The notes beneath the pieces were generated by a model. That model was not told where the DNA came from. It was given only the letters and a program-made list of their open reading frames with translations, and ran no database searches. The translations under genes and the position numbers were made by a program. From Zootoca vivipara (taxonomy: Eukaryota), in assembly GCF_963506605.1 (NCBI RefSeq), contig NC_083277.1, positions 5,518,001-5,582,000 of the forward strand: 64,000 bases of DNA, in the 5' to 3' direction. This document shows positions 54,658 to 57,600 of this stretch, piece after piece; position 1 is the stretch's first letter; each line of letters opens with the position of its first letter.

Positions 54658-57600
54658 ATGGATGAGCACAACTCAGCTGGCCCTGAAGCAGGAAGAAGCT
54701 GCAGTGTCATCAGTACTGGGAGCTGCAAGGAATCCTGGGAAAGAACAGTGCAGAACGTCCTGGATGAAGAGGACACCCTCACCTCAGATGACCAGTGCCA
54801 GCAGTTCAGACAATTCTGCTACCAGGAGGCTGAGGGCCCCCGAGAGGTCTGCAGCCAACTTCACAACCTCTGCCAACAGTGGCTGAAACCAGAGCAACAC
54901 TCAAAGAGTGAGATATTGGACCTGGTGATCCTGGAGCAGTTCCTGACTGTTCTTCCATCAGAGATGGAGAGCTGGGTGAGGGAATGTGGAGCGGAGACCA
55001 GTTCCCAGGCGGTGGCCCTGGCCGAAGGTTTCCTCTTAAGCCGGGCAGAGGACAAAAACCAGGAAAAGCAGCAGGTGAGAGTGTTTAGATAGCCTCAAGG
55101 GGCTGAAAATTTAAGGGAGGGTATCACAAAATTCTCAACTAACTGCTCGTCATTTTTTTTTCCAATATCGCTTAGGATTTCTGTCACTTGTAATGCCTTT
55201 TCTAATTTTCCTCCACATCCTAGGTGCCCCACCAAGGCCTGTCGCAGATGCATCCCAGAAGCCGGGCCACACTTCCGGAAGCTTGTTCATCGCCAAAGCA
55301 GGCCCCAACAGAGACCCCATGGCGGAGGCGGAGGCGGAGGCCCCAGCCCAGTCACTGTCACGGCTCCAGAGAGCCAGAGGATGCAAGACCATCATGTCAC
55401 ACCCTCAAGTCGTGTGTGCCGCTGCGCACCTATAATCTGAGGAGTCTGTCAGGCACCAGGCAGAGGCCAGTGGGTAAGGAATGAATCCAGAGGCTCCTAT
55501 AATCATTCAGTCAAACTGAATAGATAATTTGTTCATTGACTACTTTATACATGAGGACCCACAATTTGACTTGTGGCCAAAACCCCAAAGGGGAGAGAGA
55601 CACTTTTCCACACAACTGAAATATAAAATTGATATAGCCATATTTATGCATCAGTGCTTGGCAATCTCACATGTAGTGAGACATGCATCATCTGAGACCA
55701 GCAAGTGTTACTGGGTTGTTGTTGTTTTTTACCAACTTTGTCTCTCACAGGTGACAGGGTGTTATCAGCAAGACGTCCCCAGACATCTCCTCTTCACAGT
55801 GGAAGAAAAGCAGCTTCCTTGGGACGGATTCAGGTAGGGTGCAGATCAGGGGAGGGGGAGAGGCTGGGGGCATCCAAGGTGCCTCCCTTGGCCTGAATGA
55901 ATCTCTTTCTCTACCCTTTGAATGTAGCTAGAACAATTTATTAATAGTAGCAGTATATTTATGAATTAAAATCAGATTAAAATAGAAACATTCATCATTA
56001 AAGTACACGTCACAATTCCATTGAAACATTAAAATAAACACCATAATTAAAATGAGTATCAGGACAATTCCCTTAAAACAACAGAGCCATTAATAAATAG
56101 CAAACAACATAACAATGAGTAGTAGATCATCCTTATTCTGTATCTTGAGGAGGAAATGTTTCCTTGTTCTTTTAGGGTCCAGTGTCCTTTGAGGATGTGG
56201 CTGTGTTTTTCACGGAGGAAGAATGGGCTCTGCTGGATCCCGATCAGAGAGCTCTGCATAAGGAAGTCATGGAAGAGAATTGTGAGATCGTGGCCTCTCT
56301 CGGTAGGGCTCTGAATTGGGTCATGATATCCGTTTTGAAACCCATGAATTCATACGTATGATGAACCAATAACATTTTCATGTAGCTCGGCTGCAGCACC
56401 TGAGATTCTAAACCCCTTGCAGTTAACTTTTTTTGTCTCTGAATACACTTCCTCTAGTTATGCCCTTCCAAGCAATTATCAGACTGCTCTTCCCTGGCCA
56501 TGCCAGTGAAGCTGAGTTTTAGAGTTATTTGGAAGGTAGAAGTAGCCTCACAGTCCTTTTCTGGTTGGCCAGAGAGAATGCAGAATCGACAAGTTAGTTT
56601 TTCAGAAGATGCTTGTAAACTTGTTGAGGATTGATTGCCACCTACTAATCATTTTGTGAAGGATCGATATAGGAAGGACCTGGAATAAGAATAAGCGTTT
56701 GAGCAAGGCAGCAATTTTAACAGTGGCTGCCCTGCCCTAGACTGATCAGTGTAGTTCTTTCTAGGTATTCAGATCTGTCTTATGAACAGGCACAAAAGTA
56801 AGCTGAAAAAGGTACAAAGTCCGAGGGACCTGTACCCCCAGATAACTCAGAGATTTATTCCTGAGCTTTATACATGACGTGTTTAGGGCAGACAGGCCTG
56901 AGGTACAATGCTTTTTAAAAAAAGTGATTCAGAGTTATGGTAGTTAATACAAAATCCAGATACCTCTACAAATTCTGCTGTTGCCTGCATGACTACTACA
57001 TGGTCACTGAGGAAAACAGCAATGTTGTCTGCAAAGAGGCTTCAGCATTGGGTGGTACTACCTTCCTCATAACCCTATAGCCATGGGTTGGAGCATAGAA
57101 GGATAGCCAGTTGCTTAGAGGTTAACACAGGCAAAATTAGAAACACAGAATCCTGGTGACTAAACCATGCCTCCAGTTCCACGGAGGCATGCAATTTGGA
57201 GATGACTGTTTCTACCTTATCTCCGACTATTTTAGTATTTTAAGAAGATGTGACTATTCTAGACAGTCAAGGCACCTTGCAAGCATCAAATATTATCATG
57301 GTCAGGGCAGTGCGGTTGATTCTGGCGTGCCAAATAATACTAAGAAGTCTACAGCCAGTGTGGTGTAGTGGTTAAGAGCGGTAGACTCGTAATCTCGTAA
57401 TCTCATGATAGATGAGAGAAACAGGGCATAGTTAAATTAAGGAACTTGCTGCTACAGTACGCATGGATAGTCACTGACCAGCAATGGCTACTAACTGTCA
57501 TATGTATGCTATGCCTCCGCAGTCAGAGAAAGTGATGCTTCTCAATCCCAGTTATTGGGAAATGCAAGTGAGGAGAGTGCTGTTTTGTTTGGGTCCTGCT

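What the first reader, a model, noticed from the sequence alone, without database searches (positions are those of the whole stretch)
55224..55473. Gene 5 acquired a foreign, in-frame, Arg-rich exon segment
Seen: the 82-nt linker exon of the paralogs is replaced by a 250-nt exon. Only the last ~25 nt ([13 protein letters not shown], compare [13 protein letters not shown]) and the upstream intron are homologous. About 225 nt of GC/CpG-rich foreign DNA supplies a new acceptor (ATCCTAG|G), keeps phase 0 to 1, has no stop, and encodes ...[18 protein letters not shown]...PLRTYNLRS. Inference: exonisation of captured sequence that adds a basic NLS- or nucleic-acid-binding-like patch, i.e. possible neofunctionalisation.
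Basis: partly seen in the sequence, partly recalled or inferred. Interest (0 to 1): 0.7.

Follow-up and report, generated by a model that had tools for sequence, protein, structure and literature searches.

The report
Transposon scrap became a lizard exon
In a lizard zinc-finger gene, a scrap of a DNA transposon has replaced most of a short linker exon and is spliced into the transcript in four related species; it is likely kept because it supplies the splice site and reading frame, not because of its arginine-rich peptide.

Summary
The exon is real. Window 55224-55473 is exon 2 of a SCAN-KRAB-C2H2 gene whose spliced product equals RefSeq XP_034963594 (Zootoca vivipara). Four paralogs have an 82-nt exon here. 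The donor is a dispersed, non-autonomous hAT-like DNA transposon (8-bp target duplications) covering about 55219-55439. Its terminal repeat probably supplies the acceptor AG|G; the pyrimidine tract is host intron and 55440-55473 is the old exon's remnant. The old acceptor is gone, so skipping loses KRAB and the fingers. Both junctions appear in transcript contigs of three other species, and Lacerta agilis has the exon in the same frame. All 5 listed coding indels are multiples of 3; 0 of 3 UTR indels are. The NLS idea fails: the Arg run is a GCGGAG repeat (R6, R4 in another allele, LRRR in L. agilis), and the peptide changes about three times faster than SCAN/KRAB. Against a tidy picture: one RNA sample covers SCAN but not this exon, L. 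agilis is annotated as two genes split here, and the finger array is decaying. Verdict: genuine, conserved TE exonisation, most likely a frame-keeping linker rather than a new function.

The parts
54658..55074 (+). Coding part of the SCAN exon (ATG at 54658 as in RefSeq; donor in phase 0)
   Evidence: Pfam SCAN at aa 45-131; exon chain translates to P0001 exactly; no near-identical copy in the genome among 40 scored candidates, best 82%
55075..55223 (+). Intron 1 (149 nt, GT..AG); its 3' part is homologous to paralog introns up to about 55218-55222
   Evidence: Joint 'skips 149, GT..AG' in X7 and X9; alignment
55202..55206 (+). Host CTAAT, putative branch site; the A is 18 nt from the new AG (44 nt from the AG in two paralogs), with no AG between
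   Evidence: branch-site role inferred from a recalled consensus
55219..55228 (+). Remnant of the transposon's terminal repeat (CCTAGGTGCC, 9 of 10 to CATAGGYRCC); contains the acceptor AG|G
   Evidence: chance about 1e-4 per site; X8 has CA where the window has TG at 55225-6, as expected from decay of an ancestral CG
55224..55473 (+). Exon 2 (250 nt, phase 0 to 1), aa 140-222
55229..55439 (+). Internal and right-subterminal part of a non-autonomous hAT-like element; ends at the family motif ...GCACCCACAATCTG; right terminus and target duplication lost
   Evidence: nhmmer profile of 9 other copies hits 55229-55444 at E=5e-30; 7 other genomic matches at 68-82%
55248..55250 (+). Transposon-derived in-frame ATG (M148), directly preceded by an in-phase CAG; start of the L. 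agilis model
55322..55340 (+). (GCGGAG)3 repeat read as RRRRRR; one unit shorter in another allele and in X7 and X8
55440..55473 (+). Remnant of the ancestral 82-nt linker exon, with the original donor
55751..55833 (+). Exon 3 (83 nt, phase 1 to 0)
   Evidence: joints 55473>55751 and 55833>56176
56176..56302 (+). KRAB-A exon
   Evidence: Pfam KRAB at aa 252-292
57873..58486 (+). Zinc-finger exon, decaying: 3 canonical C2H2 fingers, broken fingers and a frameshifted tail
   Evidence: KRAB>ZNF junction seen as loose ends in X22 and X1

Best explanation
Exon 2 is a spliced, in-frame exon made mostly of a non-coding hAT-like DNA transposon fragment, and it likely persists as a frame-keeping linker rather than as a new functional patch. 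Likely history (inferred; order not shown): a copy landed in the pyrimidine tract of intron 1, between the branch site and the old acceptor. The TAG|G of its terminal repeat became the first AG after the branch site and took over as acceptor. A deletion then removed the element's right end, the old acceptor and 48 of the 82 exon bases. What remains has length 3n+1 and no stop, so SCAN stays in frame with KRAB and the fingers. Because skipping the exon shifts the frame, selection would keep the splice site and frame while the amino acids drift.
For: Shown: the donor family is dispersed with 8-bp target duplications (48 of 56 flank letters match in 7 complete copies), and the insert fits its profile at E=5e-30. 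The 9 nt that X7-X9 have extra at 55389 match a stretch seen in family copies. Junction 55074>55224 is in X7, X8 and X9; junction 55473>55751 is in X1, X7, X8 and X9; no listed joint shows skipping in an orthologous contig. RefSeq includes the exon in Z. vivipara and in the same frame in L. agilis. Coding indels are 5 of 5 in frame, UTR indels 0 of 3 (Fisher p=0.018, or 0.029 if counted as 4 events). Skipping gives a 247-aa product without KRAB or fingers. Amino-acid differences from L. agilis: domains 8/130, host linkers 14/136, transposon part 11/62. DNA differences to X7-X9: exon 2 54/735 against SCAN plus UTR 48/1133 (pooled pairs share the reference branch, so they are not independent).
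Against: Raw run X20 covers the 3' half of the SCAN exon about 7-9 deep but exons 2 and 3 at 0, with no joint or loose end listed to explain it (only 35 reads, about 6% of the run). Inclusion is therefore not shown to be constitutive. L. agilis RefSeq splits the locus at this intron into a SCAN-only model and a model starting at the transposon ATG. The finger array is decaying (3 and 2 canonical fingers, against 12 and 7 in relatives P0015 and P0007). Within exon 2 only two indel events are seen, and one is a 6-nt repeat unit that is in frame by nature. Absence of stops is weak evidence (P=0.2-0.6 under drift). Only 40 of 207 substitution rows were printed for X7-X9; the 7 in exon 2 make no stop, the rest were not seen. 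No raw read across 55074>55224 was listed in the window's own species. No protein-level evidence.
Confidence: 0.68

Rival explanations
1. Decaying gene: the insertion is one of several lesions in a gene drifting towards a pseudogene, and the open frame is luck.
For: Degenerate finger array in both species; low read counts and no exon-2 reads in X20 or X22; split model in L. agilis; no Podarcis protein above 75% identity to the SCAN exon among the listed hits; stop-free frames are common in this element (18%).
Against: SCAN and KRAB differ at only 8 of 130 residues from L. agilis; 5 of 5 coding indels are in frame against 0 of 3 in the UTR; the full exon chain is spliced in four organisms.
Confidence: 0.13
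2. Gene-splitting switch: the weak transposon acceptor lets the locus make a SCAN-only product, while the transposon ATG (55248) starts a KRAB-finger protein without SCAN.
For: L. agilis has exactly these two adjacent models (P0121, P0012); X20 shows SCAN-only coverage; the new AG is only 18 nt from the putative branch A; M148 is shared by both species.
Against: Z. vivipara RefSeq and the X7-X9 contigs join SCAN to exon 2. X20 has no reads beyond 55121, and no AATAAA or ATTAAA lies in intron 1. The ATG context is weak (C at -3 and +4, consensus recalled). A split model is also what low RNA coverage across a foreign insert would give (inference).
Confidence: 0.12
3. One reading: the insert was kept because its Arg-rich patch gives a new nuclear-localisation or nucleic-acid-binding function.
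For: The exon is net basic (14 R + 2 K against 5 D/E; 10 R + 2 K against 4 D/E in the 76 aa of L. agilis) and is retained across genera; RRRPQPSHC is identical in both species.
Against: The run varies within the species and is LRRR in L. agilis. No classical or PY-type NLS pattern matches in either species, except a run of 4 or more basic residues in the reference allele (patterns recalled). The Arg codons come from the element's GC-rich sequence; another open frame has 9 R. No Pfam match; only the ortholog among 1.84 billion representatives.
Confidence: 0.07

Closest known systems
TE exonisation in vertebrate genes (Sela et al. 2007, PMC2394776; Sela et al. 2010, PMC2911107; review PMC7786948; passages read)
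   Same: A TE in an intron supplies a splice site and becomes exonic; new 3' splice sites and constitutive cases are listed classes, and DNA repeats gave 109 exons in zebrafish.
   Different: Most described cases are alternative; constitutive ones are 3.1% (human) and 5.7% (mouse), mostly in UTRs, and coding ones mostly divisible by 3. Here the exon is coding, 3n+1, replaces an ancestral acceptor, and is shared across genera.
Host-transposase fusion genes such as KRABINER (Cosby et al., bioRxiv 10.1101/2020.05.07.082677; passages read)
   Same: A DNA transposon inserted in a KRAB-type gene provides the splice acceptor.
   Different: No transposase domain is captured; the sequence is non-coding; the acceptor lies in the terminal repeat and not upstream of a transposase ORF; KRAB and the fingers lie downstream and are kept.
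Non-autonomous hAT families of Anolis (Novick et al., PMC3014272; passages and part of Table 1 read)
   Same: About 290-460 bp, internally variable, 8-bp target duplications, one end YARNG.
   Different: The other end reads CATAG or CACTG, and the terminal repeat matches none in the part of Table 1 that I saw; the family name could not be looked up (no Repbase or Dfam tool).
Squamate SCAN-KRAB-C2H2 (ZKSCAN-like) genes, e.g. Rhineura XP_061476924 (P0007)
   Same: SCAN, two short linker exons, KRAB-A, finger exon.
   Different: The SCAN-to-KRAB distance is 130 aa, against 54-90 aa in 82 of 85 measurable relatives; only 3 canonical fingers.

Membership tests
TE exonisation | Exonic sequence derives from a dispersed TE | tested here: met
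   (E=5e-30 to a profile built without this copy)
TE exonisation | Spliced at canonical sites in transcripts | tested here: met
   GT..AG joints in contigs of X1, X7, X8, X9; these runs are only guessed to be RNA, but intron-free joints imply transcripts
TE exonisation | A splice site comes from the TE | tested here: met
   9 of 10 match to the terminal repeat at the host breakpoint, against 5 of 10 to a paralog intron; TG/CA variants fit an ancestral CG. The source could also be the element's internal copy of the same motif.
TE exonisation | Constitutive inclusion | tested here: inconclusive
   No skipping joint listed, but X20 has SCAN reads without exon-2 reads; depth is low
hAT superfamily, non-autonomous element | 8-bp target site duplication | tested here: met
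   7, 5, 7, 8, 7, 7, 7 of 8 in the 7 copies with both ends, of 28 loci examined; alternative left ends gave 2-4 of 8. Not testable for the focal copy, whose right end is lost.
hAT superfamily, non-autonomous element | Short terminal inverted repeats with a YARNG terminus (PMC3014272) | tested here: inconclusive
   Imperfect repeats of about 14 bp; right ends fit YARNG in 7 of 7, left ends in 0 of 7
hAT superfamily, non-autonomous element | Autonomous partner with a hAT transposase | not tested
   not searched
Host-transposase fusion | Captured transposase domain | tested here: not met
   No Pfam family in the exon; no relative other than the ortholog
SCAN-KRAB-C2H2 gene | SCAN, KRAB-A and C2H2 fingers in one frame | tested here: met
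   array reduced to 3 canonical fingers
Classical or PY nuclear localisation signal | Consensus motif, conserved | tested here: not met
   (patterns recalled); run not conserved
Classical or PY nuclear localisation signal | Drives import of a reporter | not testable with these tools
   needs a cell assay

The most novel reading that the evidence does not exclude
The transposon scrap did more than patch the frame: it turned one SCAN-KRAB-finger gene into a switchable locus that makes a full-length protein, a SCAN-only protein and a SCAN-less KRAB-finger protein started at a transposon ATG, with tissue-dependent ratios. That would be a non-coding DNA transposon uncoupling the dimerisation and repression modules of a transcription factor.
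Probability: 0.12. Interest if true: 0.68.

Novelty: new member of a known kind. Interest (0 to 1): 0.42.

Why it matters
It is a well-resolved reptile example of non-coding transposon DNA becoming 72 codons of a transcription factor and staying there across genera. The type is uncommon: coding, not divisible by 3, with no ancestral acceptor left as a fallback. It shows how a terminal repeat plus a host pyrimidine tract makes an acceptor, and that conserved frame need not mean conserved function. It is a handy test case for whether such exons gain function later. It does not change a field.

Tried and rejected
Host-gene 5' end or retrocopy as donor (another frame reads MAEAEAEA after CCCATGG): rejected, because the matches are dispersed copies with terminal repeats and 8-bp duplications. 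A complete mini-element bounded by TAGGTGC...GCACCTA: rejected, because the right arm depends on bases private to the window's species (55425, 55431, 55433 differ in all of X7-X9) and element homology runs on to 55439. Structured RNA: only a sub-threshold Rfam hit (E=0.2). Misassigned paralog reads for X20: no copy of the SCAN exon above 82% among 40 scored of 345 candidates. Upstream in-phase AGs (55080-55176) all hit stops. Recurrent use of this element in other proteins: none found; one search missed even the L. agilis ortholog, so it is weak. The look-up of sequencing runs listed no holder on record as RNA; 7 of 22 listed runs were laid, and organisms E and F and the DNA runs were not. Earlier-findings look-up: nothing. 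Pattern searches found few exact copies (4, 5 and 1), so copy number is not estimated. No structure prediction was run, since a linker without relatives would score low either way. Literature searches listed nothing on this locus or element; supplements and Repbase/Dfam were not seen, and the family may be named there.

Full report
Setting. The window is a tandem cluster of SCAN-KRAB-C2H2 genes. The focal gene has a SCAN exon (ATG 54658, donor 55074), exon 2 (55224-55473), exon 3 (55751-55833), a KRAB exon (56176-56302) and a finger exon from 57873. Joined, these translate to 496 aa identical to P0001, RefSeq XP_034963594/5 of Zootoca vivipara. The exon is therefore already in a public gene model; I found no paper on its origin.

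Observation. The exon is 250 nt, phase 0 to 1, stop-free, 62.8% GC with 11 CpG. Four of four paralogs checked have 82 nt. An amphisbaenian relative (P0007) also has the short linker, so the short form is ancestral (inference). Intron homology runs to about 55218-55222, and exon homology resumes at 55440 for 34 nt. By comparison with the paralogs, about 27 nt of intron with the old acceptor and 48 nt of exon are missing.

Donor. A genome search with the insert gave 7 other places at 68-82% identity; a search with one of them gave 25 matches. Of 28 non-redundant loci, 7 had both ends: 286-463 bp, imperfect terminal repeats (CA..GGYRCCA ... TGGYRCC..TG) and flanks matching at 7, 5, 7, 8, 7, 7 and 7 of 8 letters. 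Where several left ends were possible I took the best terminal-repeat-like one; the others scored 2-4 of 8. Eight-bp duplications and YARNG ends define hAT elements in Anolis (PMC3014272, passages read). Right ends fit YARNG in 7 of 7 and left ends in 0 of 7, so I call the family hAT-like and non-autonomous. A profile of 9 other copies hits 55229-55444 at E=5e-30 and ends with the family's right subterminal motif at 55439.

Acceptor. Bases 55219-55228 match the family's left terminus at 9 of 10 (chance about 1e-4 per site), and one other copy shows the same CCTAGG start (L013). The window has TG at 55225-6 and X8 has CA, the two decay products of the CG in CATAGGCGCC. The host CTAAT lies 18 nt upstream with no AG between; in two paralogs it lies 44 nt from the AG. 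So the element supplies AG|G and the host supplies the tract. That it won as the first AG after the branch site is inferred. The element also carries an internal copy of this motif, so which copy survives is open.

Expression. In the window's species, the X1 contig covers the exon from 55222 and splices to exon 3 and KRAB; 19 unaligned letters precede it. Raw run X21 has 6 reads on the exon (4 with the first mate on the + strand, so strandedness is unclear). X22 has none and little signal from this gene's SCAN exon. X20 has 7-9 fold depth on the 3' half of the SCAN exon and none on exons 2-3 (about 6% of each raw run read; 35, 17 and 20 reads laid). In three other organisms (X7, X8, X9) contigs carry the exon with both junctions. 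Joints that seem to skip it are marked 'between: not known'; the two X7 records listed for them are about 85% alike, that is paralogs, and I read the others likewise. Lacerta agilis XP_032997979 has the exon in the same frame at 77% identity. Whether L. agilis is one of organisms B-D was not determined.

Constraint. Indels listed: coding -3, -3 (SCAN exon), -6 and +9 (exon 2), -3 (exon 3); UTR -1, +1, +1 (Fisher p=0.018-0.029). The +9 matches element sequence that the window's lineage lost. Skipping exon 2 gives 247 aa without KRAB or fingers. Differences from L. agilis are 8/130 in SCAN plus KRAB, 14/136 in host linkers and 11/62 in the transposon part (p=0.018 against domains, 0.17 against linkers). 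The last figure is about neutral for 6-9% DNA divergence (13-17%; that divergence comes from X7-X9, not from L. agilis). Lack of stops alone is weak (P=0.2-0.6), and only 40 of 207 substitution rows were visible; the 7 in exon 2 make no stop.

The Arg patch. It is (GCGGAG)3. Six of 6 X21 reads, the X1 contig, X7 and X8 lack one unit, and L. agilis reads WLRRRP. Recalled NLS patterns do not match, apart from the plain run in the reference allele. There is no Pfam or convincing Rfam hit and no relative but the ortholog among 1.84 billion representatives.

Loose ends against a tidy story. The finger array is decaying in both named species (3 and 2 canonical fingers). L. agilis is annotated as a SCAN-only model reading through the donor (P0121, 93% identical) plus a model starting at the transposon ATG. 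With X20 this keeps a gene-splitting reading alive (0.12) and a decay reading too (0.13). No Podarcis ortholog appeared (best SCAN identity 75%; 120 of 952 hits listed, 5), so the age is bounded only as older than the Zootoca-Lacerta split. PMC2719621 (passages) leaves Lacertini genera unresolved, and I give no date.

Comparison. This is TE exonisation, a known process (PMC7786948, PMC2911107, PMC2394776; passages read). Constitutive, coding, non-symmetric cases are described there as rare and found in hypothetical or fast-evolving genes. It works like host-transposase fusions in that a DNA transposon gives the acceptor to a KRAB gene (bioRxiv 10.1101/2020.05.07.082677, passages read), but it is not one: no transposase is captured. 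PMC6381762 (passages) treats lacertid KRAB fingers; the passages I saw do not mention this. Nine searches listed nothing on this locus; supplements were not read.

Verdict. Observation confirmed with small corrections; exonisation shown and donor identified; neofunctionalisation by an Arg patch not supported. New member of a known kind; interest 0.42.

Noticed in passing
window 57873-58486: The finger exon is decaying: lost Cys/His residues and a frameshift near 58350 that leaves a further finger remnant in another frame. L. agilis ends its array differently after 2 fingers.
   Followed up: partly
   Followed up: partly
window 54600-55121, run X20: SCAN exon covered, exons 2-3 not; 4 reads run on with unlike letters and their destination is unknown.
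   Followed up: partly
window 18230-18287 (-): A second, short fragment of the same transposon family (left end; nhmmer E=3e-4).
   Followed up: no
window about 32930-33190, 44020-44250, 62530-62850: Three paralogs carry other insertions in the same intron 1 but keep the 82-nt exon.
   Followed up: no
window 55271-55281: ACTTCCGGAAG, an ETS-like site (motif recalled) inside the exon; 4 of 6 X21 reads differ at 55281.
   Followed up: no
window 58623-58930: A 60-bp tandem repeat just downstream of the gene; a 62-bp one at 15955-16264 and a 32-bp one at 553-2043.
   Followed up: no
window 10602-12239 and 16061-16780 (-): An oppositely oriented SCAN and finger gene with 15 fingers.
   Followed up: no
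L008:1560-1910: A copy of the transposon family is interrupted by another CpG-rich element.
   Followed up: no
window 54604-54657: The upstream start used by paralogs (MAEERR...) is lost here (TTG), and frame-breaking indels occur there in X7 and X8, so this stretch is now UTR.
   Followed up: partly
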